Shown here piece by piece: positions 50,997 through 62,609 of a stretch of 64,000 nt of DNA. The DNA lies in the NCBI GenBank assembly GCA_045633625.1, contig JAZQYP010000038.1, positions 16,384 to 80,383 on the forward strand, written 5' to 3'. The DNA comes from Eubacteriales bacterium (GTDB lineage Bacteria > Bacillota > Clostridia > Oscillospirales > CAG-272). The notes under the pieces are model-generated. The model ran no database searches. It was not told where the DNA came from and saw only the letters and a program-made list of their open reading frames with translations. Position 1 is the stretch's first letter; each line of letters opens with the position of its first letter. Position numbers and translations under genes: made by a program.

Positions 50997-51032
50997 TCTC
51001 AGAGAGCACTAAATAAGTTAGGACGCTTGATT

Positions 51033-52181
51033 ATGATGAAAAAAATATTAGTGATTGTAATGACACTCAGTATTTTGGTATCCTTTTGCGCTTGTCGGTC
51101 AAATACCGACAGCGCAGAGGATATAGGTGAAACACAGATGAAAGAAACACTTGAAACAATGTCTGCTGAAGAGATAAGAATGACGGAATATACCGAATAT
51201 CTGAGTAGTGTGACATATCTTGATTTTGAATTAACAGGATCGAATGAGCCATATTATATGGGAAGATGGTTTGAAAAAAGTCTTCGCGGTGAAAAATACA
51301 TGGCAACGCTTACTGACGGCAGTCTTTTGTATTTCCTTATAGACGGTGCCGAGAGCTTTGATGTGATATTTTATGAGAATACTACCATTTATACACCATA
51401 TTTTGCCTACTCGATTGACGGTGGAGAGCCTGTAAGGCAACTGATCACCGATAAGACTGTGATGCTTCCCGATGCTGGCAAGCATACCGTAAGAATAATT
51501 GCTGACGGTATGGATGAGAGTGAAGGGAAATGGAAATATGAAAAGGGCTTTTGTCTTAGTGATATAATTCCTTCAGAGGGAGGATCAATATTAGGGATAA
51601 AACCCAAAAATAAGGTCATATTCTACTTTGGAGACAGCATAACCGAAGGCATCTACGCACTTGAAGCAAGTCCTCTTGGTAACAGTGCCACAAACTCTTA
51701 TCCGTGGCATTGCTCAGAAAAGCTTGGCGCGGTTACTTACAGCGTAGGATACGGAGGATCGGGGGTCACAAGAGAGGGTTCCTTTAATACCTTTATTATG
51801 GCTATTGATCACATAAGCGCGAACCGAGAAGTGTCGGATGGCATTATGCCCGACGTCATAGTTATAAATCACGGCACGAACGATTATGGCAGAGCTACCG
51901 ATAAGGAATTTGTCGAGGGACTCAAACTTGCCCTTGACCGGTTGCGTGAAAAGTATCCCGAAACACCAATAGTGTATATGGTTCCGTTCTCACAGCGAAA
52001 TGCGAGAAATATCATTAACTTAATTCCTACCTATGAAAACGCCTACTTTGTTAAAACAAATTCGTGGGGAATTAGCTGTACCGACAGCTTTCATCCAAAC
52101 GCTGAGGGCGCAAAGAAAGCAGGCGAGAAGCTTGCGGATGCACTTGTCGATATATTTGGCGAGGAGTTCTTTAATAATTAA
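51033..52181 (+). CDS. SGNH/GDSL esterase lipoprotein (stand-alone copy of the giant enzyme's C-terminal module)
   Basis: Lipoprotein-type signal (LVSFCAC), then sequence colinear with residues about 1830-2158 of the upstream ORF, with SGNH blocks conserved. Confidence 0.87.
   Translation: MMKKILVIVMTLSILVSFCACRSNTDSAEDIGETQMKETLETMSAEEIRMTEYTEYLSSVTYLDFELTGSNEPYYMGRWFEKSLRGEKYMATLTDGSLLYFLIDGAESFDVIFYENTTIYTPYFAYSIDGGEPVRQLITDKTVMLPDAGKHTVRIIADGMDESEGKWKYEKGFCLSDIIPSEGGSILGIKPKNKVIFYFGDSITEGIYALEASPLGNSATNSYPWHCSEKLGAVTYSVGYGGSGVTREGSFNTFIMAIDHISANREVSDGIMPDVIVINHGTNDYGRATDKEFVEGLKLALDRLREKYPETPIVYMVPFSQRNARNIINLIPTYENAYFVKTNSWGISCTDSFHPNAEGAKKAGEKLADALVDIFGEEFFNN
51183..52181 (+). repeat. 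Duplicated module, copy 2
   Basis: See 50004-50996. Confidence 0.9.
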
Positions 52182-52232
52182 AAGCAATACTTGATGAGTT
52201 AACCTTTTCGAAAGAGTGGATGGACAAAACTA

Positions 52233-52270
52233 CAAACATAGGGTGTCGCAAATGCGACACCCTATGTTTG
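52233..52270. terminator. Long perfect hairpin after the esterase gene (possible terminator, no U-tract)
   Basis: 17-bp stem caaacatagggtgtcgc / gcgacaccctatgtttg with loop aaat. Confidence 0.45.
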
Positions 52271-52559
52271 CGTCATAAAGAGCTTTAAGAAAAGTTTAAT
52301 TATTTAATTTTTAAGGTGTTGCAAAAAATGAGTTAATATGATATAATAAAGTGTTAAAAATTATTCGTATAAAGTTTAAGGAGTAAATTTATTATGAAGC
52401 TTGGAATAGCTGATTGACCAGCTTTTTCGGCTGTTTTCATATATCTCCTTAAATCTCTATAAAGCCTTATACAGTAAGGGTTTGTGACTGTTTTTCTCTA
52501 TCATCGCAAAAACGTGATTTATATAAAAATCTATGTAACTTTATATAAATCCACGCCAA

Positions 52560-52597
52560 AATGGTGTAAAAAATGGTGTAAATAAAAATGGTGTAAA
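52560..52597 (+). repeat. Three direct repeats of ATGGTGTAAA
   Basis: Exact 10-mers at 52561-52570, 52573-52582 and 52588-52597. Confidence 0.85.
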
Positions 52598-52617
52598 AGG
52601 CACTCAGTGTAACGAAG

Positions 52618-52660
52618 ACAAGGCGCTCGAGCATATGTTCGGGCGCCTTGTTTTATTTTA
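52618..52660 (+). terminator. Orphan terminator hairpin (near-copy of 25311-25350)
   Basis: caaggcgctcga gcatatgt tcgggcgccttg followed by TTTTATTTT. There is no upstream + strand ORF within about 430 bp. Confidence 0.55.
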
Positions 52661-52749
52661 AGTTAAAATTTAGAGATATGGCTGACTCAAAAGTGCTTCC
52701 ATTAAAAATGGTTTTATGGGTATTTTCCGCACTATTCGGCAATAACACC

Positions 52750-52778
52750 TTGCTTTCTACAAGTTTTTATGATATACT
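52750..52778 (+). promoter_or_regulatory. Candidate promoter of the HTH/R-M cassette
   Basis: TTGCTT (52750-52755), 17-nt spacer, TATACT (52773-52778). RBS AGGAG lies 9 nt before the ATG at 52816. Confidence 0.35.
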
Positions 52779-52815
52779 AAAACAGTATAATTCTATCTAA
52801 TAGGAGAGTTGTAAA

Positions 52816-53010
52816 ATGCAAGAGATGAATCAAATGCCAGAACGATGGTTTTCGACAAAGGAAATGTGTGCCTACCTCGGCGTAACACGTGACACTTTGC
52901 TTACATGGATAAATGAAAAGGGAATGCCAGCGCACAAGGTCGGCCGTGGTTGGAAGTATAAGCCCAGCGAGGTCGATGAGTGGATCAAGAGCGGAAAGGC
53001 GGCTGAATAA
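52816..53010 (+). CDS. Excisionase/MerR-type helix-turn-helix DNA-binding protein
   Basis: 64 aa. STKEMCAYLGVTRDTLLTWINEKGMPAHKVGRGWKYKPSEVDEWI fits the excisionase-family HTH pattern (..L.V...T.Y.W...G..P..K.G..W.....E...W.). Confidence 0.75.
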   Translation: MQEMNQMPERWFSTKEMCAYLGVTRDTLLTWINEKGMPAHKVGRGWKYKPSEVDEWIKSGKAAE

Positions 53011-53723
53011 TGACAGAAGCAACGGTAGAAATACTTACAAGTATTATTTCAAGTGTTTTGGGTGGATTGGTTGGCGGTCTTTTTACCTTTCTTGGAGTAA
53101 AAATGACAATTAACCACGAGGAGAAAAAAGAAAGACGAGCAAAAGAAGAATTGATTTTGCAAAGTCGTCCTAGATTGGATATAGTGGATTTCTTTGAAAT
53201 TGACAAATATACAACTAGTTCAAAAGCAGACGAAAGTCTTATAATTGCAACCATTGAAGAGTTTGATAATGGTCAATTTATGTATGACGACGAAATTCTT
53301 AATGAAGAAAAATGGGCTTCGGTAGAATATATTTTGAAGAATATTGGTTCAACAGAAATTGATCATATGTATTTTTCAACCAATTATATGAAAACCACCT
53401 CTGTGTTTGACAATTTCGGTATTTATGGTAGACACTTCCCTGAGAAAAATATGTTGAATTATTCTGTTTATTCTAACAGGAAAATAAAACCCAGAGAAAC
53501 TTTTTGCTTGCAGATAAATTTTCTTGATGATAAAATTATTGCTTCACAGGTTCGTGCTTTGATGACGATTTGGTTAGTAGATATAAATGGTAATTGGTGG
53601 AAACAACAATTGTTCGCTCCTTATAAACAGATTGACAATTCTCTTAAAACAGCGCATAAAGAATGGTATGATTCTGTTAATCAAGCAGAAGAAACCAGAT
53701 GTTATTTTTATCCTGTAGAATGA
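53010..53723 (+). CDS. Uncharacterised 237-aa single-pass membrane protein
   Basis: N-terminal TM helix (ILTSIISSVLGGLVGGLFTFLGV), then a charged linker and a soluble domain. The start overlaps the HTH stop (TAATG). No family recognised. Confidence 0.7.
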   Translation: MTEATVEILTSIISSVLGGLVGGLFTFLGVKMTINHEEKKERRAKEELILQSRPRLDIVDFFEIDKYTTSSKADESLIIATIEEFDNGQFMYDDEILNEEKWASVEYILKNIGSTEIDHMYFSTNYMKTTSVFDNFGIYGRHFPEKNMLNYSVYSNRKIKPRETFCLQINFLDDKIIASQVRALMTIWLVDINGNWWKQQLFAPYKQIDNSLKTAHKEWYDSVNQAEETRCYFYPVE

Positions 53724-53753
53724 TAAATATAACTTACGAAAGAGAGAAACAAG

Positions 53754-55493
53754 ATGACAGATAAAGAATTAAAGAAACTGAAAGACGACCTTTGGCACTC
53801 GGCGGACGTGCTTCGTTCAAGTGCGCATTTGGCGGCAAATAAATACGGTCAACCCATTCTTGGCTTGATCTTTCTTCGCTATGCAGATATTCTCTACAAG
53901 CAGCACAAGGACGAGATTGAGGCAGAATTTAAGAAATACGAAGGCACTCGTATGGAAAAATCCATTAAGGAAATCTCCATTGAAAAATGCGGCTTCTATC
54001 TGCCCGAGTGCGCTTACTATGATACCATCAATAATGCGCCCGATACGGCAGAAAAAGCGAAGCTTGTAAAGCTTGCGATGGAAGCAATAGAGGAATACAA
54101 TCCTAAGCTTGCAGGCGTCCTTCCCAAAGAAGTGTATGCAGGGCTTGTTCCCGACGAAGAACCCGAGCTGCTTTCCCGTATCGTTAAGATTTTCAAGGAT
54201 ATCCCCGAGAATATCAGCATCGATCTTTTCGGTGAGATTTACGAATACTTCCTCGGCAACTTCGCACTTGCCGAAGGCAAGGACGGCGGAACATTCTATA
54301 CACCTGCAACCGTTGTTCGTTATATGGTAGAGGTATTGCAACCCGAAGCGGGTGCTGAAAAGAAGTTCCTCGACCCTGCTTGCGGTTCGGGCGGTATGTT
54401 CGTGCAGGCGGCGAGATATATGCACAAGCACAACGCAAGCGCATCGGCTATGATGAATTTCCGTTGTTATGGTGTAGAAAAAGAACCCGATACGGTAAAG
54501 CTCGCAAAGATGAATCTGCTTCTTAACAACGTGCGCGGAGAGATTACCGAAGCCAACTCTTTCTATGCCGATCCTTACAACGCCTTTGAACAGTTTGACT
54601 ACGTTATGGCAAATCCGCCCTTCAACGTAGATGAGGTTGTTTACGAAAAGGTAAAGGACGATAACCGTTTCAATACTTACGGTGTGCCGAGAAATAAGTC
54701 TAAGTCCACCAAGAAGGAATCCGACAAGAAAGAAACTGTACCGAACGCAAACTATCTGTGGATCGGATATTTTGCGGCGGCGCTGAATTGGCAAGGCAAA
54801 GCAGCACTCGTTATGGCAAACTCTGCATCCGATGCAGGCGGTAGTGAATACGAGATCCGCAAGAAAATGATTGAGGACGGCATTATCAGTCAGATGGTAA
54901 CGCTTCCGTCCAATATGTTCTCGTCGGTTACACTTCCCGCAACACTTTGGTTCTTTAACAAAGCAAAAACGGAAACAGAAAAGCGCGATGAGATCCTGTT
55001 CGTTGATGCGAGAAACGTTTTTACACAGGTTGACAGAGCGCATAGAAAGTTTACCGACGAACAGATCAAAAATCTCGGCATCATTACCCGTCTTTACGAG
55101 GGCGATACCGAGGCGTTTGCCGCATTGATCGCAGAATATAAGTCTGAAATGGAAGTTGCTCCCGAGGTTGCCGAGGACAAGGATACCAAAACGAAAGCGT
55201 ATTGGCAGGAGCAGATGGAATGGCTGACAAGCCGTTTCCCCGACGGCGTTTACCGTGATGTAGTGGGTCTTTGTAAGGTTGCCAAAATTGAGGGCGAGGA
55301 CGGAATTAAAGATCAGGACTATTCGCTCAATCCCGGACGCTACGTTGGTGTAGTCATCGAGGATGACGGAATGACCGCAGATGAGTTTAAGGCAGAAATG
55401 CTGTCTCTTAATGATGAGCTTGCGAAGTTGAATGATGAGGCGCGCGAGCTCGAAACTAAAATTTCAGACAACTTAAAAGGATTATTTGAATGA
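53754..55493 (+). CDS. hsdM: Type I restriction-modification system, methyltransferase subunit
   Basis: HsdM_N-like N-terminus (LWHSADVLRS), AdoMet motif I LDPACGSGGMF and catalytic motif IV VMANPPFN. Confidence 0.95.
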   Translation: MTDKELKKLKDDLWHSADVLRSSAHLAANKYGQPILGLIFLRYADILYKQHKDEIEAEFKKYEGTRMEKSIKEISIEKCGFYLPECAYYDTINNAPDTAEKAKLVKLAMEAIEEYNPKLAGVLPKEVYAGLVPDEEPELLSRIVKIFKDIPENISIDLFGEIYEYFLGNFALAEGKDGGTFYTPATVVRYMVEVLQPEAGAEKKFLDPACGSGGMFVQAARYMHKHNASASAMMNFRCYGVEKEPDTVKLAKMNLLLNNVRGEITEANSFYADPYNAFEQFDYVMANPPFNVDEVVYEKVKDDNRFNTYGVPRNKSKSTKKESDKKETVPNANYLWIGYFAAALNWQGKAALVMANSASDAGGSEYEIRKKMIEDGIISQMVTLPSNMFSSVTLPATLWFFNKAKTETEKRDEILFVDARNVFTQVDRAHRKFTDEQIKNLGIITRLYEGDTEAFAALIAEYKSEMEVAPEVAEDKDTKTKAYWQEQMEWLTSRFPDGVYRDVVGLCKVAKIEGEDGIKDQDYSLNPGRYVGVVIEDDGMTADEFKAEMLSLNDELAKLNDEARELETKISDNLKGLFE

Positions 55494-56215
55494 CAACAGA
55501 AGAACTTTTTGAATCGGTTGGATTTGTTGGAGAATATTACTCGCAAATGTCTGATTTTTATAAAGACAATTTTGATTTGGAAGAGGATATGATTTCGTTT
55601 TTTATAAAAATATTCAAAAATGATAAAAATGACAAAATTCCTCGTCAAATGATGAATCAAGTACAGCAGCTTGTGTCGATTGCAACCGATATTGATCAGA
55701 TTCGTCCTGCGCGTGATCCGCTTAGAATGTTCTTTATCAAAACATGTTTGGAAGCGTTATGTGAGTTGTCGGGAATGAACAACAAAAAAGACAAACCCAT
55801 TTTTTACGAGATATTTCCAACCTTTATCAGCACGGAGGGGAAACAATATATTCTTGATAATTTTTTGTTAATGAGTTTCGATGACATATATATGAACCAT
55901 AAATATGAAGCATATCACGAATTAACCATTGATGATTTTTTTGAAATTATTAAAGCAGTTCGAGATATCGTGGCACATGAGGGAAACTATTGGGAGATGC
56001 AATTCTTTGCACATAACACAACAGACACGACCTGGGTTGTATCTTTGGAAACGAATCGAAAAATACTAAAATCTTATCAATACAAGTGTGAAGAGAATAT
56101 AACACGAGAATATCACTTTGAAACGACAATGCAATATGATAGGTTTATATATTATTTCATCGAAGCGTGCATTGGCTTTATTGTCAATTACATTGATAGA
56201 AAGGAGGCGGTATAG
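55490..56215 (+). CDS. Uncharacterised 241-aa protein with R-x4-H (HEPN-like) motif, embedded between hsdM and hsdS
   Basis: The ATG overlaps the hsdM stop (ATGA). Motif VRDIVAHEG lies at 55958-55984. No P-loop and no TM helix. Composition is A/T-rich. Confidence 0.75.
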   Translation: MTTEELFESVGFVGEYYSQMSDFYKDNFDLEEDMISFFIKIFKNDKNDKIPRQMMNQVQQLVSIATDIDQIRPARDPLRMFFIKTCLEALCELSGMNNKKDKPIFYEIFPTFISTEGKQYILDNFLLMSFDDIYMNHKYEAYHELTIDDFFEIIKAVRDIVAHEGNYWEMQFFAHNTTDTTWVVSLETNRKILKSYQYKCEENITREYHFETTMQYDRFIYYFIEACIGFIVNYIDRKEAV

Positions 56216-56218
56216 ATA

Positions 56219-57346
56219 ATGAAAACTACGAGATTTAAACTAAAAGACATATTAAAAATCAAAAACGGACGTGACCATTCTCACCTTGAAATAGGCGATT
56301 ATCCTGTTATAGGTAGCGGTGGTATTATGAGATATGCCGATCAATATCTGTATAATGGTGAAAGTGTTTTGCTTCCCCGTAAGGGTACATTGGATAACAT
56401 TCAATATATAAACGGAGCTTTTTGGACTGTTGATACTTGCTATTATACCGATATAAACAAAAATATTGTCAACCCTTATTATCTATATCGTCATTTGCGA
56501 AGTCTTGATTTGAGCGGGCTTGACTCGGGTGCGAGTATTCCAAGCATGACATCAAAATGTTATTATAATATAAAAATAGATTTGCCTTGCCTCCAAATAC
56601 AAAATCAAATTGCTGATATTCTTTCGACCTATGATGATCTGATTGAGAACAACAATCGCAGAATTGCTCTTTTGGAGAAAGCGGCGCAGGAGCTTTACAA
56701 GGAGTGGTTTATCCGCTTCCGTTTCCCCGGTTATGAAAACGCCAAGTTTGAAAATGGTCTGCCCGAGGGGTGGAATGTAAAGAGAATGAATGATTTTTGT
56801 TACGTTACAGACGGAACACACGATACTCCCAAGCCTTTAGACGAAGGTTTTCCGCTGATAACAGGCAGATGTATCAAAAACGGCTTTGTTGACTTTGATG
56901 AAGCTTATTGTATAAGCAAAAAAGATCACGAAAATATCAAAAAGCGCAGCGGGCTTTCCTCGGGCGATATTCTTTTTAGCAATATCGGCACAGTTGGTAA
57001 CTGTTGTATCGTGGATTATAGTAGAGAGTTCAGCGTAAAAAATGTGATTATTTTCAAACCCAATGATATGGTACAAACCGCATATCTCTATTATTGGATG
57101 ACGAGCCATTCTATGCAAGAAATATTTGCAACGCAAACGAATGGTGCATCACAACAGTTTGTTGGTCTAACCTTTATGCGCCGATATAAAATTCTTGTTC
57201 CCGAACAGGAAATTTTGACAGCGTTTGGAGATAAGATTTTGCCAATATTGGAGCAAAAGAGGCTGTTACATAATAACAATTTGAATCTCGCAAAACAGCG
57301 TGATTTACTCTTGCCGCGCCTTATGAGTGGCAAATTGGAGGTGTAA
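56219..57346 (+). CDS. hsdS: Type I restriction-modification system, specificity subunit
   Basis: 375 aa with two target-recognition domains separated by the conserved helical spacer (RIALLEKAAQELYKEWFIRFRFPGYE) and the C-terminal repeat (NLAKQRDLLLPRLMSGKLEV). Confidence 0.92.
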   Translation: MKTTRFKLKDILKIKNGRDHSHLEIGDYPVIGSGGIMRYADQYLYNGESVLLPRKGTLDNIQYINGAFWTVDTCYYTDINKNIVNPYYLYRHLRSLDLSGLDSGASIPSMTSKCYYNIKIDLPCLQIQNQIADILSTYDDLIENNNRRIALLEKAAQELYKEWFIRFRFPGYENAKFENGLPEGWNVKRMNDFCYVTDGTHDTPKPLDEGFPLITGRCIKNGFVDFDEAYCISKKDHENIKKRSGLSSGDILFSNIGTVGNCCIVDYSREFSVKNVIIFKPNDMVQTAYLYYWMTSHSMQEIFATQTNGASQQFVGLTFMRRYKILVPEQEILTAFGDKILPILEQKRLLHNNNLNLAKQRDLLLPRLMSGKLEV

Positions 57347-57348
57347 AA

Positions 57349-59280
57349 ATGGATAATCGAGTAAAGTATTATCCGCCTACAGATTTGTTCTTCGGGCATA
57401 ATCTTTCTAAAATTGAAGCAATCGAGGTTCCTGCTTTTGAGGCAATTGATATTAACGATGCGATTGAATTTTTTCAAATAAAAAGATACTTAGATACGGG
57501 AACTCGGTCAAAAACTTGGAGTGATGAAGCATATGAGGAATATAAAGCAAAATGCGAATCTCTTTCAAGGCTGACAAAACGTTTTTTTAATCAACTCAGC
57601 GACGATAATATAATTGATTATTATAATAGGATCGAAATGGGGTATCATTCCGACTTTTGGGTTCTATTTGACAACTGCAAGTTATTCAATAAAATAAAAA
57701 ATGAAACGTTTGAGGCATTGATCAATGGAGATAAAATCTCTCCTCACGATTTGTTTTTGCACAAAAATATTGTTCGCAAGTATGGTAATGAACTAAGAAA
57801 CTATATAATTCAGAATGAATACTGTATTATCATTCTTTTGCATGTGTATGAGCAGGACTATACTGATAGCGAAAAACTCATTTTGCCTGCCGAATTGACG
57901 GGAGAAGATATATGTAACTACCTTGAAAGTTATATCGATGGAGAACACCCGAATACAAATCATCTTAGCACTATTATCGATATGCACTGCACAAATCAAT
58001 TCCCAATCACCGATGAAATACGGTTGAAGGCAAAAAGAAGATACGAAAAAGAACTTGAAAATATATCTCAAACGGGTGTCAGCATTTCGCACGGAATCCA
58101 AATATCCTTTAACCCCGATCAGGAAAAAGAAAAGATTGGTACGCATAACGACCATGAATTTTCAATTTCATATAGCACAAAGTGGCTATTGGAAACACTT
58201 GATTACCCAAGCATACTAAACAACTTTATTTATCTGTTTGAGTTTGTGGACGTGCCTCAAATGAGGTGTTCCCATGTGAATAGGATATCGCAATCGGGTG
58301 TGTTTGAGCGTGTTCTCGCCTCTAAATCGTCGAGAGCATATCCTCATAATTACGCTTTCGGTTTTTCCAATGGAATAGCCTCAATGCAAATGCATGCCTA
58401 TTACGACTTTTTGGCAAGGCAAAATATTCGCTTGGAAGATGTAATAAAGTGGTTTTTTACTGAGCAAATACAATCCGAATTTGGTTGTGCGGAAATTCGG
58501 TTGTCTATGCCTTCTTCCGATAGTACTTATGCGGAAAAGTGTTCTTCCATCATTACCGCTTTTGAATCGGTTTTGAAACAATACTCGCTATATGTTAAAA
58601 ACGGAGAGATTGATTTTGAGCTTGTCGGGATGTCAACAACTCCGGTGCTTTTTGCTAATATTAAAAGTTTAGTCGAAGACAAGTATATCTACGGCGTTGG
58701 CGACGATTATAAGCGATTGTCCTTTTGGTTTTTCTCTGATCAATGTACGTTCTCTTTTATCGAGCGAATACACAAAGAAGGTCGTAATTATGATTGCTTT
58801 ATAGACCTAATGTTAAAGGAAACGGTTTATACTTACGATTATCGAGAAGAAGAACTATGGGCTTTTGAAAATATGGCAAGTTACGATCTTATAGCTATAG
58901 GTGACGATGGGAAAATAACTCTCAAAAACTTAGCAAAATTAGCGATGTTGCGTGACTTGTTCGAAAATGATGTTATCAGCAAGTGGCACTATCCACCGGA
59001 AGCGAAAGAGGCTATTGGTGATTTTATAGAAAAAGGCATTATAACAACCAAGTCAACTCTGTTTTCACAACCGGAAATTGATTACCTTAATTATCTGCTT
59101 AATCGTGCAGAATATACCAACGGCTTGGAAATTCGCAATAGATATATACACGGAATACAGCAGGTAAGCACCAATGAGGACGAGCATAGGCAAAACTACT
59201 TTATGTTGCTTAGACTTTTTGTTCTGCTTGCAATAAAAGTTAATGATGATTTTTGTTTGCGTGATGAACAGAACCAATAA
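57349..59280 (+). CDS. Uncharacterised 643-aa protein with C-terminal R-x4-H (HEPN-like) motif, embedded between hsdS and hsdR
   Basis: It starts 2 nt after the hsdS stop. Motif EIRNRYIHG lies at 59128-59154, followed by one predicted hydrophobic helix. No P-loop, TM helix or signal peptide. Very A/T-rich codon usage. Confidence 0.8.
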   Translation: MDNRVKYYPPTDLFFGHNLSKIEAIEVPAFEAIDINDAIEFFQIKRYLDTGTRSKTWSDEAYEEYKAKCESLSRLTKRFFNQLSDDNIIDYYNRIEMGYHSDFWVLFDNCKLFNKIKNETFEALINGDKISPHDLFLHKNIVRKYGNELRNYIIQNEYCIIILLHVYEQDYTDSEKLILPAELTGEDICNYLESYIDGEHPNTNHLSTIIDMHCTNQFPITDEIRLKAKRRYEKELENISQTGVSISHGIQISFNPDQEKEKIGTHNDHEFSISYSTKWLLETLDYPSILNNFIYLFEFVDVPQMRCSHVNRISQSGVFERVLASKSSRAYPHNYAFGFSNGIASMQMHAYYDFLARQNIRLEDVIKWFFTEQIQSEFGCAEIRLSMPSSDSTYAEKCSSIITAFESVLKQYSLYVKNGEIDFELVGMSTTPVLFANIKSLVEDKYIYGVGDDYKRLSFWFFSDQCTFSFIERIHKEGRNYDCFIDLMLKETVYTYDYREEELWAFENMASYDLIAIGDDGKITLKNLAKLAMLRDLFENDVISKWHYPPEAKEAIGDFIEKGIITTKSTLFSQPEIDYLNYLLNRAEYTNGLEIRNRYIHGIQQVSTNEDEHRQNYFMLLRLFVLLAIKVNDDFCLRDEQNQ

Positions 59281-59297
59281 TACCAAAGGAGAAAGAT

Positions 59298-62200
59298 ATG
59301 TCAAGATTTATATACGAAGACGACATAGAAAAAGCGTTACTCGACAAGTTAGCTGCCGAGCCGTTTTGCTATGACGTCATCACTTGTGATCCTTCGACAT
59401 CATCAAAAGAGAATATAAACGACGGAACGGGACGCGCAAGCAAAAAGCAGTGTGTTCTGCCCGCCGTGCTGCGTTCCGCGCTGATTCGTATCAATCCCAC
59501 GATCCCTGCCGAGGTGCTCGACGGTATCGTAAAGGATCTGTGCCGCGATTTCACGGGTGTGGATATGAAGGCGGTCAACTACAAGCTCTATCAGCAAATC
59601 CGCAACTACATAAAGGTGTCGGTAAGGCGGGGCGGCAAGCAGGACTTTGATTTTGTCAAGCTGATTGATTTTGACAAACCCGAAAACAATACTTTTACCG
59701 CAGTTTCGCAGATGTGGATCGAGGGGCGTTTTAATTGGCGTCGTCCTGACATTATCATCTTTGTCAACGGACTTCCGCTTGTATTTGTGGAGCTTAAGAA
59801 CAGCGACGTTAAGGTGGAAGAAGCCTATAATCGCAATCTGAAAAGCTATCTCAAGGACGTTCCCAATCTCTTTGCTTTCAATCAGATCTGCGTGCTTTCC
59901 AACGGACTTGAAACAAGGCTCGGTGCGTTTTCCGCTACCTATGACTATTTCTTTGAATGGCTGAAAGCAAGTGAGAATGAGAGAATTGACCGCAAGGCAA
60001 TCTCTGAAGACGGTGTTTCGCTGTCTTACTTTGCGGACGGTTTGTTGCCGAAAGCAAATTTGATTGACTACATTGAAAACTTCATATTGTTTGAGAATCA
60101 GTCAATCAAGATTATCGCAAAGAACCACCAATATCTCGGTGTTAATAATTTGATTGAGTCGGTTAAAGATCGCAAGGCGTTGCAGGGCAAGCTCGGCGTA
60201 TTCTGGCATACGCAAGGAAGTGGTAAATCTTACTCGATGGTTATGTTTACCCGCAAGGTCAAGCGTAAGATTGAGGGAAACTTTACCTTCCTTATCATCA
60301 CCGACCGCGACGACCTTGATACACAGATCCACAAGAACTTTGTTCGTACCGAGGTTATCGGCGACAAGGAAGAATGTCAACCCAAGAACGGTGCGCAGCT
60401 TCGTGAATACCTGCAAACCAATAAATCGTTTATCTTTACGCTGATTCACAAGTTTAATTACGATAAGACCAAGAAGTATCCCGTGCTTTCCGAGAGGGAT
60501 GACATTATCGTTTTGGTTGACGAAGCTCACCGCACGCAGTACAAGAGCCTTGCGGAGAATATGAGAACAGCGCTTCCCAATGCCAATTATATTGCCTTTA
60601 CGGGAACACCCCTGCTTGGCGCTAAACGTTTGACAAACCAATGGTTTGGTAACTACGTTTCGGAATATAACTTTGCACAATCGGTCGAGGACGGCTCTAC
60701 CGTGCCGCTGTTTTATAGCCGCAGAGTGCCCGAGGTTTGGCTTGAAAACGATTTCCTGGACGATGACGTACTTGACATTATTGAGGACGAAAACCTCAAT
60801 GAATCCGAAACAAAGCTCCTTGAAAATTCCTCATCGAGAATCCTTGAGGTTATCAAGCGTGATGACCGACTTGATAAAATTGCAAGAGATATCGTACATC
60901 ATCTGCCTCGTCGCGGATTCCGTGGCAAAGCAATGGTAGTATCGGTGGATAAATATACTGCCGTAAAGATGTATGATAAGGTCCAGCACTATTGGGGTGA
61001 GGAAAAGAAAAAGCTTGTTGCCGAAAGGAACAAAGCCGCAACTAAAGAGGAACGAGACCAGATTTCCGCAATGATCGATTATATGAACAGGATGGAGATG
61101 GCAGTTATCGTTTCCGAAGAAGCTGACGAGAATCAAAAGTTCGCGGCGCAGGGGCTTGATATTTCTTCTCACCGTGCCAAGATGAACGAGATCACACCCG
61201 AAGGAAAGGACATTGAAGATCGTTTCAAAGACCCTACTGATCCACTTCAGCTTGTATTCGTATGCGCAATGTGGCTGACGGGATTTGACGTTAAGAGTCT
61301 TTCGTCTGTTTATCTTGATAAGCCTATGAAGGGACATACTCTGATGCAGGCAATTGCACGTGCAAACCGTGTATTCCCAACGAAAACTTGCGGTATTATC
61401 GTGGATTACGTCAACGTTTTCAAGTATATGAAGAAGGCTCTTTCGGACTATGCTTCGGGCGATGATGACACCGAATTTCCGGCTAAAGACATCGATCAGT
61501 TGATCGTTAACATTGATTCTTGTATTGATGAAACCGATGCCTTCTTGAAGGAAATGGGCATTGATCTTGACAAGATTATTGCCGAGGCTTCTACTTTCGA
61601 TAAGCTTGACGAATTGCGTGCGGCATATAATAAAATCATTGCTACCGACGATGCAAAGGATCGTTTTAAGGTCTTGGCGAACACAACGATTAATCTATAC
61701 GAAGCTGCTAAACCCGAGATATTCGAGCAGAGTTGGACAAACGAAAAGTTCTCGCCAATATCCTATTTGCACGGTCTTTTCTACAATTACATTGACGATG
61801 AAAAGATCAATCGTGCGCGTCTTCGTATGGCGCAGGTGCTTGACACAAGCATTTCTTCAAACGTGAACTTAGATGCCGATTCCGAGTATGTGATTCACGG
61901 CTCAAAGGTTATCGATCTTTCAAAAATTGATGTGGACGAGCTTCGTTTGGAAATCAAAAAGACTCCGTACAAGGCAATAGAAATCGACGATTTGAAAAAG
62001 TATTTGGAAGAAGCTCTCCAAAAGATGATTAACAAGAATTGCACTCGTGTGAAGTTTTCGGAGCGTTTCAAAGGCATCGTTGACAGATATAACGCCGGAG
62101 GATCGGAGAATGAGGATTACTACGAGCAGTTAATCAAATTGCTCGAAGAAATGCAAGCCGAGCAGAAACGTGCCGATACGGAAGGGTTGAGCGAGGAAGA

Positions 62201-62507
62201 ACTTGAAGTTTACGACCTTTTGATTAAAGGCAAGAAGCTCACAAAAGCCGAGGAACAGAAGGTGAAGCTTGCCGCAAAGAATCTCTATAAGAAGCTCACG
62301 GAAGAAAAGGCAACTCTTATGGTGGTGGATTGGTATAAGGACGATCAGCCCACAGAGCGAGTCAAAAACGCAATCAAAGAGTCGCTCAACATTGACCTTC
62401 CCGAGTGCTATGACAAGGATTCTTTCAATGCCAAAACCGTTCTCCTCTTGAACCATTTCATTGATATGGCGGTTCAAGGATACGGATGGGTTGGAGCGAG
62501 CGCATAA
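59298..62507 (+). CDS. hsdR: Type I restriction-modification system, restriction (helicase-nuclease) subunit
   Basis: 1069 aa with N-terminal PD-(D/E)xK region (RPDIIIFVNGLPLVFVELKN) and SF2 helicase motifs I HTQGSGKS, II VLVDEAHRTQ and VI QAIARANR. Confidence 0.95.
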   Translation: MSRFIYEDDIEKALLDKLAAEPFCYDVITCDPSTSSKENINDGTGRASKKQCVLPAVLRSALIRINPTIPAEVLDGIVKDLCRDFTGVDMKAVNYKLYQQIRNYIKVSVRRGGKQDFDFVKLIDFDKPENNTFTAVSQMWIEGRFNWRRPDIIIFVNGLPLVFVELKNSDVKVEEAYNRNLKSYLKDVPNLFAFNQICVLSNGLETRLGAFSATYDYFFEWLKASENERIDRKAISEDGVSLSYFADGLLPKANLIDYIENFILFENQSIKIIAKNHQYLGVNNLIESVKDRKALQGKLGVFWHTQGSGKSYSMVMFTRKVKRKIEGNFTFLIITDRDDLDTQIHKNFVRTEVIGDKEECQPKNGAQLREYLQTNKSFIFTLIHKFNYDKTKKYPVLSERDDIIVLVDEAHRTQYKSLAENMRTALPNANYIAFTGTPLLGAKRLTNQWFGNYVSEYNFAQSVEDGSTVPLFYSRRVPEVWLENDFLDDDVLDIIEDENLNESETKLLENSSSRILEVIKRDDRLDKIARDIVHHLPRRGFRGKAMVVSVDKYTAVKMYDKVQHYWGEEKKKLVAERNKAATKEERDQISAMIDYMNRMEMAVIVSEEADENQKFAAQGLDISSHRAKMNEITPEGKDIEDRFKDPTDPLQLVFVCAMWLTGFDVKSLSSVYLDKPMKGHTLMQAIARANRVFPTKTCGIIVDYVNVFKYMKKALSDYASGDDDTEFPAKDIDQLIVNIDSCIDETDAFLKEMGIDLDKIIAEASTFDKLDELRAAYNKIIATDDAKDRFKVLANTTINLYEAAKPEIFEQSWTNEKFSPISYLHGLFYNYIDDEKINRARLRMAQVLDTSISSNVNLDADSEYVIHGSKVIDLSKIDVDELRLEIKKTPYKAIEIDDLKKYLEEALQKMINKNCTRVKFSERFKGIVDRYNAGGSENEDYYEQLIKLLEEMQAEQKRADTEGLSEEELEVYDLLIKGKKLTKAEEQKVKLAAKNLYKKLTEEKATLMVVDWYKDDQPTERVKNAIKESLNIDLPECYDKDSFNAKTVLLLNHFIDMAVQGYGWVGASA

Positions 62508-62576
62508 CCATACAATTATTTGTTTAAGGTGAACACAAAACGAAGTATGGTGATAAACCTTAACACACACAATTCG

Positions 62577-62609
62577 ATAGGGACGGATATCCGTCCCTAT
62601 CTTTTTTTA
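62577..62609. terminator. Rho-independent terminator after hsdR (between convergent genes)
   Basis: Stem atagggacgg / ccgtccctat, loop atat, then cT7. Confidence 0.75.

What the first reader, a model, noticed from the sequence alone, without database searches (positions are those of the whole stretch)
52816..62507. Type I R-M operon interleaved with unannotatable ORFs: a seven-gene, translationally coupled cassette
All seven ORFs are on the + strand. Their junctions are TAATG (53008-53012), 30 nt, ATGA (55490-55493), 3 nt, 2 nt and 17 nt, and the cassette ends at the hairpin 62577-62609, so it reads as one unit. hsdM, hsdS and hsdR are recognisable by their motifs. Three further ORFs (237, 241 and 643 aa) match no family I can name. 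Two of them are inserted between the R-M subunits, and each carries an R-x4-H motif (VRDIVAHEG, EIRNRYIHG), the catalytic signature of HEPN ribonucleases. HEPN toxins are known to sit inside R-M operons as second-line abortive-infection modules (PrrC in the EcoprrI locus, RloC). Neither ORF here has the P-loop NTPase of PrrC/RloC, so this would be a different architecture. The inserted ORFs also look clearly more A/T-rich than hsdM and hsdR, which suggests separate acquisition.
Basis: partly seen in the sequence, partly recalled or inferred. Interest (0 to 1): 0.85.

Follow-up and report, generated by a model that had tools for sequence, protein, structure and literature searches.

The report
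Type I restriction operon carrying embedded defence genes
A seven-gene restriction-modification operon carries three extra, swappable genes, two of which look like RNA-cutting "suicide" enzymes; this layout is already known in outline, but one of the two belongs to a family missing from every library searched.

Summary

- **O6 (643 aa)** is not unclassifiable. It matches PADLOC candidate PDC-S56 over its full length (E = 5.6e-205). That family was defined by "guilt-by-embedding" and is untested. Its invariant RNxYxHG motif lies in a C-terminal domain with weak DUF4209 (HEPN) similarity. Only 5 of 44 relatives sit in type I R-M, always in the order hsdS–O6–hsdR.
- **O4 (241 aa)** belongs to a family of 439 clusters that is absent from Pfam, PADLOC, NCBIfam and PHROGs. 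Its most conserved residues are R158, H163, G165 and E88. The motif lies at the end of a helix, as in HEPN domains. Its recurrent weak hits are all to HEPN families. No PDB or viral fold match was found. One subclade sits between hsdM and hsdS.
- **O2** is a membrane-anchored protein that recurs beside type I R-M operons and Fic genes.
- A relative with about 90% identity shares hsdM, O6 and hsdR but has unrelated ORFs in the O1/O2 and O4 positions.
- In related operons the hsdS–hsdR slot holds kinases, PARIS, DRT4 or TIR genes.

Best reading: a composite defence island in which HEPN-like abortive-infection effectors are embedded in a type I R-M scaffold.

The parts
52615..52654 (+). Terminator-like hairpin that closes the upstream unit and marks the 5' boundary of the cassette
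   Evidence: 18-pair stem followed by a T-run; inverted repeat I2
52655..52815 (+). Putative promoter and leader of the cassette. It contains a small palindrome, TATACT-N5-AGTATA (52773-52789), overlapping a TATAAT (52786-52791). This may be an operator for O1 or may be chance.
   Evidence: Read directly from the sequence; not tested
52816..53010 (+). O1: a 64-aa HTH_17 / excisionase-type DNA-binding protein, probably the transcriptional regulator of the operon
   Evidence: Pfam HTH_17 1.4e-15. PADLOC mad1-like 7.5e-12. NCBIfam MADS1 68.8 bits, below the cutoff of 80, and TIGR01764 2.3e-16. PHROG excisionase/regulator. GC 0.487, like the host background.
53010..53723 (+). O2: a 237-aa membrane-anchored protein with an N-terminal glycine-zipper TM helix, a charged linker and a conserved domain of about 180 aa. 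It is an accessory gene that recurs beside type I R-M operons. Function unknown.
   Evidence: No Pfam, PADLOC, NCBIfam or PHROG hit. 49 homologues. Alignment A3. Homologues lie directly upstream of hsdM in L111 and L117, at the 3' end of a type I operon in L116, and after a Fic gene in L113 and L117. GC 0.321, z = -4.2. Absent from the ~90%-identical operon L118.
53754..55493 (+). hsdM, the type I methyltransferase subunit
   Evidence: HsdM_N plus N6_Mtase 2.8e-75; PADLOC MTase_I 1.6e-181
55490..56215 (+). O4: a 241-aa HEPN-like protein from a family found in none of the libraries searched. Its start overlaps the hsdM stop (ATGA). Predicted active-site residues: E88 (55751-55753), R158 (55961-55963), H163 (55976-55978), G165 (55982-55984).
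   Evidence: No family hit. 84 close homologues. 439 clusters at 50% identity. R158 100%, H163 99%, G165 98%, E88 95% of 122 members. R158 and H163 are invariant in 82 distant members. AF2 pLDDT 91.4, with the motif at the end of helix 147-164. Weak HEPN_Apea, Abi_2, KEN and DUF4145 hits. Lies between hsdM and hsdS in 11 other distinct loci plus near-identical copies L124/L125.
56219..57346 (+). hsdS, the specificity subunit with two target-recognition domains
   Evidence: Methylase_S, 2 stretches, 5e-31. PADLOC Specificity_I 5.2e-74. Only the central and C-terminal conserved regions align to L118, which is typical of TRD exchange.
57349..59280 (+). O6: a 643-aa member of PADLOC candidate family PDC-S56. 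It has a large, mostly helical N-terminal region and a C-terminal HEPN-like domain (about residues 570-642, nt 59056-59277). The invariant motif R596-N-x-Y-x-H601-G602 lies at nt 59134-59154.
   Evidence: PDLC05039 E = 5.6e-205 over residues 2-641. 967 homologues. R596, N597, H601 and E576 are present in 59 of 59 relatives down to ~26% identity. DUF4209 weak hits in 6 of 43 members, best 8.6e-4, covering residues 573-614 in the window's protein. AF2 pLDDT 91.4.
59298..62507 (+). hsdR, the restriction and translocase subunit
   Evidence: HSDR_N, SWI2_SNF2, T1R_D3-like and T1RH-like_C; TIGR00348 1.8e-145
62576..62609 (+). Intrinsic-terminator-like hairpin and T-run that end the operon
   Evidence: 11-pair stem with 7 GC pairs, then TTTTTTT

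Best explanation
The locus is a composite defence island built on a type I R-M operon, probably in an Oscillospiraceae-like Clostridia genome. All seven genes are co-transcribed from one promoter downstream of the 52615-52654 terminator. O1, a small HTH protein, is the likely regulator.

hsdM, hsdS and hsdR form a conventional type I enzyme that attacks unmethylated incoming DNA. Three cargo positions hold separately exchangeable genes: upstream of hsdM, the hsdM|hsdS junction, and the hsdS|hsdR junction.

O4 and O6 each carry a HEPN-type catalytic constellation: an acidic residue in an upstream helix plus R-[ND]-x3-H at the end of the next helix. The most likely mechanism is inferred, not shown. 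Both would be metal-independent RNases that dimerise through the HEPN domain and are activated during phage infection. They would then cleave tRNA, mRNA or rRNA to stop translation, giving an abortive-infection or dormancy layer behind DNA restriction.

O6 probably senses its trigger autonomously through its ~570-residue N-terminal region, because about 90% of its relatives work outside R-M operons. O4 is a small single-domain protein. In its close subclade it is translationally coupled to hsdM, so it may depend more on the R-M context.

O2 is a membrane-anchored accessory protein of unknown role.

Shown: gene content, junctions, family-wide conservation, genomic contexts and modular exchange. 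Inferred: RNase activity, the abortive-infection role and regulation by O1.
For: - ORFs, junctions, ribosome-binding sites and terminators.
- R-M subunits.
- O6 is PDC-S56. PDC families were derived from genes embedded in BREX, DISARM or type I R-M systems (bioRxiv 10.1101/2024.01.29.577857).
- O6 motif: R596, N597, H601 and E576 present in 59 of 59 relatives. DUF4209, a published HEPN family that 'occurs in R-M related operons' (PMC3710099), recurs as the weak hit over the motif region.
- O4: R158, H163, G165 and E88 are the four most conserved residues of 122 members. The residue after R158 is N, C, D or H. R158 and H163 are the only invariant columns among 82 members at 18-32% identity.
- In the pLDDT 91 model, the O4 motif lies at the C-terminal end of helix 147-164 and is followed by a loop and a final long helix. 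This matches the published position, 'end of helix-3'.
- The only recurring weak Pfam hits in the O4 family are HEPN families: HEPN_Apea in 6 members, Abi_2 in 3, KEN in 1 and DUF4145 in 1.
- A natural fusion joins an O4-like domain to an AbiU2 HEPN domain.
- Contexts: in O4-bearing operons the hsdS-hsdR slot holds PD-T4-6-like kinases, fused AriAB, Drt4 with PDC-M14 (TIR), an ATPase with PDC-S31, or an M78 peptidase.
- Stand-alone O4 and O6 relatives lie beside HipA, GmrSD-HNH, a PHP-ATPase with UvrD, CBASS, helicases and integrases.
- Modularity: the window and L118 share ~91% identity over 53738-55493 and ~90% over 57266-62527. L118 has unrelated ORFs where the window has O1/O2 and O4.
- Precedents: HEC-08, a HEPN protein, confers defence that requires the motif histidine. 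DarTG2 and TgvAB are embedded in type I R-M operons.
Against: - No profile hit to any HEPN family reaches a curated threshold for the window's own O4 or O6.
- Foldseek with two confident models found no HEPN structure or any other significant match in the PDB, or in BFVD for O4.
- hmmsearch of both family profiles against PDB sequences found nothing.
- The strong AbiU2 hit is a separate fused domain, not the O4-like region. hhalign of the O4 profile against that AbiU2 domain is negative.
- No antitoxin or immunity partner is evident.
- PDC-S56 has never been tested experimentally.
- No nuclease, toxicity or phage data exist for any of the three ORFs.
Confidence: 0.55

Rival explanations
1. PrrC-like guarded toxin. 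O4, and perhaps O6, would be held latent by physical association with the HsdM2S or full R-M complex. It would be released as an RNase only when a phage anti-restriction protein (Ocr, ArdA or Stp-like) disables the enzyme. The RNase would then be a second line wired to R-M integrity.
For: - O6 occupies exactly the prrC position, between hsdS and hsdR.
- The O4 start overlaps the hsdM stop in the window and in L073, L074, L075, L078, L079, L082 and L085, and abuts it in L089. That would favour stoichiometric co-production with HsdM and HsdS.
- 12 of 18 close O4 relatives with informative flanks are linked to type I R-M.
- PrrC is almost exclusively embedded in type I R-M.
Against: - Only 5 of 44 O6 relatives lie in type I R-M, so O6 cannot generally depend on an R-M partner.
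- Distant O4 relatives, and 6 of 18 close ones, lack an R-M neighbour.
- One O4 relative lies after hsdR of a different type I family.
- A ~90%-identical hsdM/hsdR operon works without O4.
- There is no NTPase regulatory domain of the kind PrrC and RloC use.
Confidence: 0.2
2. O4 and/or O2 are non-toxic accessory or regulatory factors of the R-M enzyme itself. They might control assembly, restriction alleviation or localisation. The conserved R/H/E residues would serve in binding rather than RNA cleavage.
For: - The tight hsdM-O4-hsdS arrangement is conserved across operons of 41-75% identity. The DNA alignment runs contiguously through the hsdM-O4 junction in L075 and L078.
- O2 relatives recur beside three different type I R-M families.
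- No HEPN fold match was found.
Against: - Most of the wider O4 family (439 clusters) is not next to R-M.
- O2 also occurs with Fic and no R-M.
- The conservation pattern, with only R, H, G and E near-invariant, is that of a catalytic site rather than an interface.
- Closely related operons lack both genes.
Confidence: 0.15
3. The inserted ORFs are selfish or neutral hitchhikers, such as addiction modules or remnants of mobile elements. They would exploit recombination-prone junctions of hsd operons and contribute nothing to phage defence.
For: - The slots are plainly recombination hotspots with unrelated contents.
- Relatives sit near integrases, relaxases and recombinases.
- AT-richness persists in all loci, which is typical of the mobile gene pool.
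Against: - The other occupants of the same slots are validated or candidate defence systems: PARIS, DRT4, PD-T4-6 and TIR genes.
- All three proteins are intact, have ribosome-binding sites, and belong to well-conserved families.
- Embedded genes have repeatedly proved to be defence genes.
Confidence: 0.1

Closest known systems
PADLOC PDC-S56, a phage defence candidate defined by guilt-by-embedding (Payne et al., bioRxiv 10.1101/2024.01.29.577857)
   Same: O6 matches the PDC-S56 HMM end to end (E = 5.6e-205). It is embedded in a type I R-M operon, which is how PDC families were discovered.
   Different: Nothing differs in membership. The additions here are the invariant E...RNxYxHG constellation, the DUF4209/HEPN-like assignment of the C-terminal domain, the fixed hsdS-O6-hsdR position, and the 11% embedding rate. 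I did not find any of these in the papers I read.
PrrC in the EcoprrI locus, and RloC (anticodon nucleases linked to type I R-M)
   Same: O6 lies between hsdS and hsdR, as prrC does. It has a HEPN-type R-x4-H motif near its C-terminus. The presumed role is an abortive-infection RNase backing up restriction.
   Different: O4 and O6 have no N-terminal P-loop NTPase. They show no sequence similarity to PrrC or RloC. Most O6 relatives are not R-M-linked. O4 sits in a different slot, between hsdM and hsdS.
HEPN superfamily families found in R-M operons: DUF4209/C6orf70, DUF4145, Ymh and Apea-like (Anantharaman et al. 2013, PMC3710099)
   Same: Conserved Rx4H with a polar residue after R, an upstream conserved acidic residue, the motif at the end of a helix, and an R-M or defence-island context. 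The weak profile hits go to exactly these families.
   Different: All hits are below the curated thresholds. The predicted folds give no Foldseek match to solved HEPN structures. O4 has large helical and beta-strand inserts. Among the libraries searched, O4 has no model.
RptR-DarTG2 island of EPEC (PMC12255303) and TgvAB in V. cholerae VPI-2 (PMC11411939)
   Same: An operon of similar size with a small HTH gene first and defence cargo embedded between hsdS and hsdR. That junction is described there as a recombination hotspot for defence systems.
   Different: The cargo differs (HEPN-like proteins rather than DarTG or GmrSD-like). O1 is an HTH_17/excisionase type and gave no PDB match to a regulator of that kind. 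This operon has additional occupied slots upstream of hsdM and between hsdM and hsdS.
HEC-08, a HEPN protein embedded in Hma systems (Payne et al.), and ApeA single-gene HEPN defence (ApeA role from my own recall)
   Same: Single-protein HEPN defence genes found embedded in or beside other systems. In HEC-08 the motif histidine is needed for defence.
   Different: No detectable sequence relationship beyond sub-threshold HEPN_Apea hits in 6 distant O4-family members. The domain architectures differ.

Membership tests
Type I restriction-modification system | HsdM with an HsdM_N domain and an N6-adenine methyltransferase domain | tested here: met
   PF12161 1.4e-18 and PF02384 2.8e-75; PADLOC MTase_I 1.6e-181
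Type I restriction-modification system | HsdS with two target-recognition domains | tested here: met
   Methylase_S, 2 stretches, 5e-31; Specificity_I 5.2e-74 over the full length
Type I restriction-modification system | HsdR with an N-terminal nuclease domain, an SF2 translocase and a C-terminal domain | tested here: met
   HSDR_N 5e-40, SWI2_SNF2 1.1e-72, T1R_D3-like and T1RH-like_C; TIGR00348 486 bits against a cutoff of 284.55
Type I restriction-modification system | Sequence-specific methylation and ATP-dependent restriction activity | not testable with these tools
   Needs methylome sequencing and plasmid or phage restriction assays
PADLOC PDC-S56 (O6) | Full-length match to the family HMM | tested here: met
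   PDLC05039 E = 5.6e-205, residues 2-641 aligned to profile positions 5-644 of 649
PADLOC PDC-S56 (O6) | Demonstrated anti-phage activity | not testable with these tools
   PDC systems are described as untested candidates
HEPN superfamily (O4) | Conserved Rx4-6H motif with a polar residue (N, D or H) after R | tested here: met
   R158 in 122 of 122 members and H163 in 121 of 122. The next residue is N in 70, C in 26, D in 18 and H in 3. R158 and H163 are invariant in 82 distant members.
HEPN superfamily (O4) | Motif at the end of helix-3 of a four-helix core, with a conserved acidic residue in an upstream helix | tested here: inconclusive
   In the AF2 model (pLDDT 91.4) R158-H163 lies at the end of helix 147-164 and is followed by a last helix, 216-240. 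E88 (95% conserved) lies in helix 76-93. This is consistent with PMC3710099. Coordinates could not be superposed on a HEPN structure.
HEPN superfamily (O4) | Significant profile or fold similarity to a recognised HEPN family | tested here: not met
   Only sub-threshold Pfam hits: HEPN_Apea 0.014, Abi_2 0.0032, KEN 0.017, DUF4145 0.0082. Foldseek best E was 0.9 against the PDB and 0.31 against BFVD. The PDB profile search was negative.
HEPN superfamily (O6 C-terminal domain) | Conserved Rx4-6H with a polar residue after R, plus an upstream acidic residue | tested here: met
   R596, N597, H601 and E576 are present in 59 of 59 relatives down to ~26% identity
HEPN superfamily (O6 C-terminal domain) | Significant profile or fold similarity to a recognised HEPN family | tested here: inconclusive
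   DUF4209 hits in 6 of 43 members (best 8.6e-4). The window's own protein scores 0.15 and 12.6 bits against a cutoff of 22.3, over residues 573-614. Foldseek found no significant hit.
HEPN superfamily (O4 and O6) | Metal-independent RNase activity that depends on the R and H residues | not testable with these tools
   Needs biochemistry
PrrC/RloC anticodon nucleases | N-terminal P-loop (ABC-type) NTPase domain that regulates the nuclease | tested here: not met
   No AAA, ABC or P-loop Pfam hit and no Walker A motif in O4 or O6
PrrC/RloC anticodon nucleases | Near-exclusive embedding in type I R-M operons | tested here: not met
   O6 family: 5 of 44 loci. O4 family: 12 of 18 close relatives and none of the distant ones.
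MADS (methylation-associated defence system) | MAD1 and MAD2 equivalogs above the NCBIfam cutoffs, plus the other mad genes | tested here: not met
   O1 scores 68.8 bits against a cutoff of 80. hsdM scores 68.3 bits against a cutoff of 720. No mad3, mad4, mad6, mad7 or mad8 equivalents are present.

The most novel reading that the evidence does not exclude
O4 founds a previously unrecognised, structurally divergent HEPN family. Its R-M-embedded subclade would be a minimal, NTPase-less functional analogue of PrrC. Being translationally coupled between hsdM and hsdS, it would dock on the HsdM2S core and be unleashed as an RNase when phage anti-restriction proteins attack the enzyme. The hsdM|hsdS junction would then be a second, dedicated 'guard' slot, distinct from the promiscuous hsdS|hsdR cargo slot.
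Probability: 0.15. Interest if true: 0.75.

Novelty: new variant of a known kind. Interest (0 to 1): 0.42.

Why it matters
**Defence cargo in type I R-M operons.** This locus shows three separately exchangeable slots in one operon, and it gives base-level breakpoints against a ~90%-identical relative. That makes it a clean model for how such operons collect and swap second-line effectors.

**O4.** The family is sizeable (439 clusters at 50% identity) and has no match in Pfam, PADLOC, NCBIfam or PHROGs. It has a HEPN-like catalytic signature and a confident predicted fold with no solved relative. Adding it to defence-finder tools, and testing it, would fill part of the large share of embedded genes that Payne et al. 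report as unexplained (more than 50%).

**O6.** The E...RNxYxHG constellation gives the untested candidate PDC-S56 a concrete catalytic hypothesis that can be tested by mutagenesis.

**Overall.** None of this overturns current ideas. It extends a framework that is already established.

Tried and rejected
- Foldseek of the O4 model against the PDB and BFVD, and of the O6 model against the PDB, gave no significant matches.
- Profile searches of both families against PDB sequences were negative.
- hhalign of the O6 C-terminus against the O4 family found them unrelated, so they are not paralogues.
- hhalign of A4 against the AbiU2 domain was a self-match artefact, because A4 contains P0383. The repeat with A1 was negative.
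- The strong AbiU2 hit (2.6e-17) first looked like a bridge to a known HEPN family. It is a separate fused domain, so I count it as domain association only.
- I considered MADS membership because of the mad1, mad2 and mad5 hits. All are far below the cutoffs, so I rejected it.
- O1 showed no match to a solved regulator; the best PDB hit was RdfS at E = 0.49.
- Rfam and tRNA scans of the flanks found nothing.
- Look-ups of the window's exact O4 and signal-peptidase proteins found nothing on record. I could therefore not define the island boundaries against an empty site, or identify the exact host.
- A literature search for 'PDC-S56' returned no papers.
- I rejected GC content as evidence of recent acquisition, because AT-richness holds in 7 of 7 O4 loci and 41 of 41 O6 loci.

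Full report
**1. Observation**

The window carries seven + strand ORFs at exactly the coordinates given:
- O1 52816-53010 (64 aa)
- O2 53010-53723 (237 aa)
- hsdM 53754-55493 (579 aa)
- O4 55490-56215 (241 aa)
- hsdS 56219-57346 (375 aa)
- O6 57349-59280 (643 aa)
- hsdR 59298-62507 (1069 aa)

The junctions are TAATG, 30 nt, ATGA, 3 nt, 2 nt and 17 nt. Each start has a Shine-Dalgarno-like sequence. Strong terminator-like hairpins lie at 52615-52654 and 62576-62601, and none of comparable quality lies on the + strand inside the cassette. A single transcription unit is therefore the natural reading.

The composition claim holds. GC is 0.321 for O2, 0.332 for O4, 0.363 for O6 and 0.383 for hsdS, against 0.466 for hsdM, 0.448 for hsdR and 0.487 for O1. 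Relative to 36 other genes in the window, the z-scores are -4.2, -3.9, -3.0 and -2.4.

**2. The R-M core and O1**

hsdM, hsdS and hsdR are unambiguous. O1 is an HTH_17 / excisionase-type DNA-binding protein (Pfam 1.4e-15). It resembles the MAD1 HTH of MADS systems but scores below the NCBIfam cutoff (68.8 bits against 80), and the hsdM hit to MAD2 is far below its cutoff. This is not MADS.

A small HTH gene at the head of a type I R-M island has a direct precedent in RptR (PMC12255303). O1 showed no sequence match to any solved regulator. A 6+6 palindrome overlaps a TATAAT 25 nt upstream of the O1 start (read). It could be an operator, or it could be chance.

**3. O6 is a catalogued candidate**

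O6 matches PADLOC PDC-S56 from end to end (E = 5.6e-205). Payne et al. derived the PDC families from genes embedded in BREX, DISARM and type I R-M systems. They list 145 such candidates as untested (bioRxiv 10.1101/2024.01.29.577857).

The family is large, with 967 hits. In 60 sequences down to about 26% identity, R596, N597 and H601 are present in all 59 relatives, as are E576, N591, G592, K630, N632 and D633. The C-terminal ~70 residues are the most conserved part of the protein.

The AF2 model is confident (pLDDT 91.4). It places RNxYxH on a short helix (595-600) between helix 574-584, which carries E576, and a long terminal helix (610-642).

The one Pfam family that recurs over this region is DUF4209. 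It hit 4 of 32 full-length members and 6 of 43 C-terminal segments, with a best E of 8.6e-4. The window's own protein scores E = 0.15 over residues 573-614. Anantharaman et al. list DUF4209/C6orf70 as a HEPN family that 'occurs in R-M related operons' (PMC3710099).

Foldseek found nothing significant. HEPN membership of O6 is therefore likely but not proven.

**4. O4 is an uncatalogued HEPN-like family**

O4 has no hit in Pfam, PADLOC, NCBIfam or PHROGs. The word-indexed search gave 84 homologues. An exhaustive profile search gave 439 clusters at 50% identity, all of them small proteins.

- In 122 representatives, the four most conserved residues are R158 (100%), H163 (99%), G165 (98%) and E88 (95%). 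The residue after R158 is N, C, D or H.
- Among 82 members at 18-32% identity, R158 and H163 are the only invariant columns.
- The AF2 model (pLDDT 91.4, pTM 0.89) puts R158-H163 at the C-terminal end of helix 147-164. A loop and beta-strand insert follows, then a final long helix (216-240). E88 lies in helix 76-93.
- This matches the published description of HEPN domains: Rx4-6H 'at the end of helix-3', a polar residue after R, an acidic residue in helix-2, and inserts between helices 2 and 3.
- Across family members, the only recurring weak Pfam hits are HEPN families: HEPN_Apea in 6 members, Abi_2 in 3, the RNase L KEN domain in 1 and DUF4145 in 1. The Apea hits cover the motif region.
- One member, P0383, is a natural fusion of an O4-like domain with a bona fide AbiU2 HEPN domain.

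Against this, no hit reaches a curated threshold. Foldseek against the PDB and BFVD found nothing. Profile searches against PDB sequences were also negative. I conclude that O4 is probably a divergent HEPN family, with membership not formally established.

The bare motif has no weight on its own, because hsdM and hsdR each carry an Rx4H by chance. O4 and the O6 C-terminus are not specifically related to each other. Neither has a P-loop.

**5. Genomic contexts**

*O6 family.* A scan of one genome per species returned 72 loci, from Bacillota, many Actinomycetota, Treponema, Bacteroidaceae and Cloacimonadales. Of 44 loci with at least 3 kb on both flanks, only 5 lie in type I R-M, always in the order hsdS-O6-hsdR. 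No partner gene is conserved. Stand-alone copies lie next to helicases, a CBASS pair, recombinases and integrases.

*O4 family.* Twelve of 18 relatives at 41% identity or above with informative flanks are linked to type I R-M. Eleven of those sit between hsdM and hsdS, mostly with the start overlapping the hsdM stop. One lies after hsdR of a different family. A further set of near-identical contigs (L123-L125) shows the same hsdM-O4-hsdS arrangement. Distant relatives are never in R-M. They lie beside HipA, GmrSD-HNH, and a PHP-ATPase with a UvrD helicase.

*O2 family.* O2 relatives recur directly upstream of hsdM (L111, L117), at the 3' end of another type I operon that also carries a Ymh HEPN-family gene (L116), and directly after Fic genes (L113, L117). 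O2 has a glycine-zipper TM helix, a charged linker and a conserved ~180-aa domain. Its function is unknown.

**6. The slots are exchange hotspots**

In O4-bearing operons, the hsdS-hsdR gap holds different cargo in each locus:
- PD-T4-6-like Ser/Thr kinases (L075, L081, L117)
- a fused AriAB (PARIS) protein (L078, 5.6e-126)
- PDC-M14A with PDC-M14B (TIR) and Drt4 (L074, 4.6e-219)
- an AAA_21 ATPase with PDC-S31 (L085)
- an M78 peptidase (L082)
- a 272-aa unknown protein (L123)

The published view is that this junction is a hotspot for defence cargo: DarTG2, TgvAB and RloF, and PrrC.

The most direct evidence for modularity comes from L118/L119, an operon on an element with a relaxase.
- It shares ~91% DNA identity with the window over 53738-55493. 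The homology ends exactly at the hsdM stop.
- It shares ~90% identity over 57266-62527, which spans the hsdS 3' end, O6 and hsdR.
- In the O1/O2 position it has a 174-aa ORF with no DNA similarity to the window there.
- In the O4 position it has a 109-aa four-TM protein unrelated to O4.

The hsdM|hsdS junction is therefore a second cargo slot.

The window-to-L075 and window-to-L078 alignments run contiguously through hsdM into O4. O4 is thus an old resident of part of this hsdM lineage.

AT-richness does not date the insertions. O4-like genes are 7-12 GC points below the adjacent hsdM in 7 of 7 loci. O6-like genes are below their flanks in 41 of 41 loci, by 8.7 points on average.

**7. Mechanism**

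Best supported (confidence 0.55): a composite defence island. O1 probably regulates the operon. HsdMSR restricts unmethylated DNA. O4 and O6 are HEPN-type, metal-independent RNases that act as abortive-infection effectors. O6 is autonomous and uses its large N-terminal region as a sensor.

The RNase chemistry and the abortive-infection role are inferred from the conserved E...R[ND]xxxH constellation and from precedents. These are PrrC, RloC and KEN mutagenesis and HEC-08 defence that depends on the motif histidine.

It is unlikely for O6, given its 11% embedding rate. The rivals are a non-toxic accessory role (0.15) and pure hitchhiking (0.1).

**8. Novelty and verdict**

The kind of system is known: type I R-M with embedded second-line defence, and HEPN proteins in R-M operons. 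O6 is an existing candidate family. The following are not in the libraries searched or the papers I read:
- the O4 family itself, which has no model in any library searched and a confident fold with no solved relative
- its preferred, translationally coupled hsdM|hsdS position
- the recurrent O2 accessory gene
- the simultaneous occupation of three slots in one operon, with precise breakpoints against a close relative

I rate this a new variant of a known kind, with moderate interest (0.42).

Noticed in passing
window 52190-52815: An AT-rich (GC 0.31-0.34) 620-bp spacer lies between a bidirectional terminator (52232-52271) and the terminator at 52615-52654. It holds three direct repeats of AAAAATGGTGTAAA (52557-52597, spacing 12 and 15 nt), a perfect 12-nt inverted repeat GATTTATATAAA/TTTATATAAATC (52516-52551), and a promoter-like site with an extended -10 (52319-52347). 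There is no Rfam match. It could be a small RNA, a regulator binding array or an integration scar.
   Followed up: partly
window 44520-50996 and 51027-52181: The 2158-aa secreted glycosidase-like protein and the following 384-aa lipoprotein-like protein share a near-identical C-terminal module of about 330 aa (SGNH/GDSL-like, ending ...FHPNAEGAKKAGEKLADALV.IFGEEFF). They are tandem paralogues, visible in the translations.
   Followed up: no
L074 11680-14746; L078 7072-8694; L075 6611-8197; L085 6208-8707; L082 6290-6874; L123 10910-11728: The hsdS-hsdR slot of related type I operons carries different cargo in each locus: PDC-M14A with PDC-M14B (TIR) and Drt4; a fused AriAB (PARIS) protein; a PD-T4-6-like kinase; an AAA_21 ATPase with PDC-S31; an M78 peptidase; and an unannotated 272-aa protein.
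   Followed up: yes
P0383 (396 aa, from the representative library): A natural fusion of an O4-like domain (residues 1 to about 197, motif VRCWIAHEG) with a bona fide AbiU2 HEPN domain (212-380, motif RNKHFAH). This tandem arrangement is reminiscent of two-HEPN effectors.
   Followed up: partly
L118 8506-8835, 6205-6729 and 15196-15975: In the ~90%-identical operon, a 109-aa four-TM protein fills the hsdM|hsdS slot. A 174-aa coiled-coil protein precedes hsdM and a 259-aa protein follows hsdR. None has a meaningful family hit. The whole operon sits on an element with a relaxase, NikA-like and TnpV genes.
   Followed up: partly
L116 4624-7705: A different type I operon (hsdR-hsdM-hsdS) is followed by a Ymh (PF09509, HEPN family) gene, a 235-aa unknown, a DUF3800 gene and an O2-like gene. 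This may be a recurrent HEPN plus O2 association at R-M operon ends.
   Followed up: no
L113 4677-6288 and L117 6115-7726: O2-like genes lie about 10 nt downstream of a 291-aa Fic-domain gene in two unrelated contexts, one with R-M and one without. This hints at a Fic-O2 functional pair.
   Followed up: no
all O4 and O6 loci: Embedded and stand-alone O4-like and O6-like genes, and hsdS, are consistently 5-13 GC points below neighbouring hsdM, hsdR or flanking DNA, in hosts ranging from 30% to 57% GC. This is a persistent compositional trait rather than a mark of recent transfer.
   Followed up: yes
window 59277-59304 (- strand) and 57668-57695 (+ strand): Two near-consensus sigma-70-like sites (11 of 12 matches). 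One is antisense at the O6/hsdR junction and one is sense inside O6. They may be internal or antisense promoters, or AT-rich chance matches.
   Followed up: no
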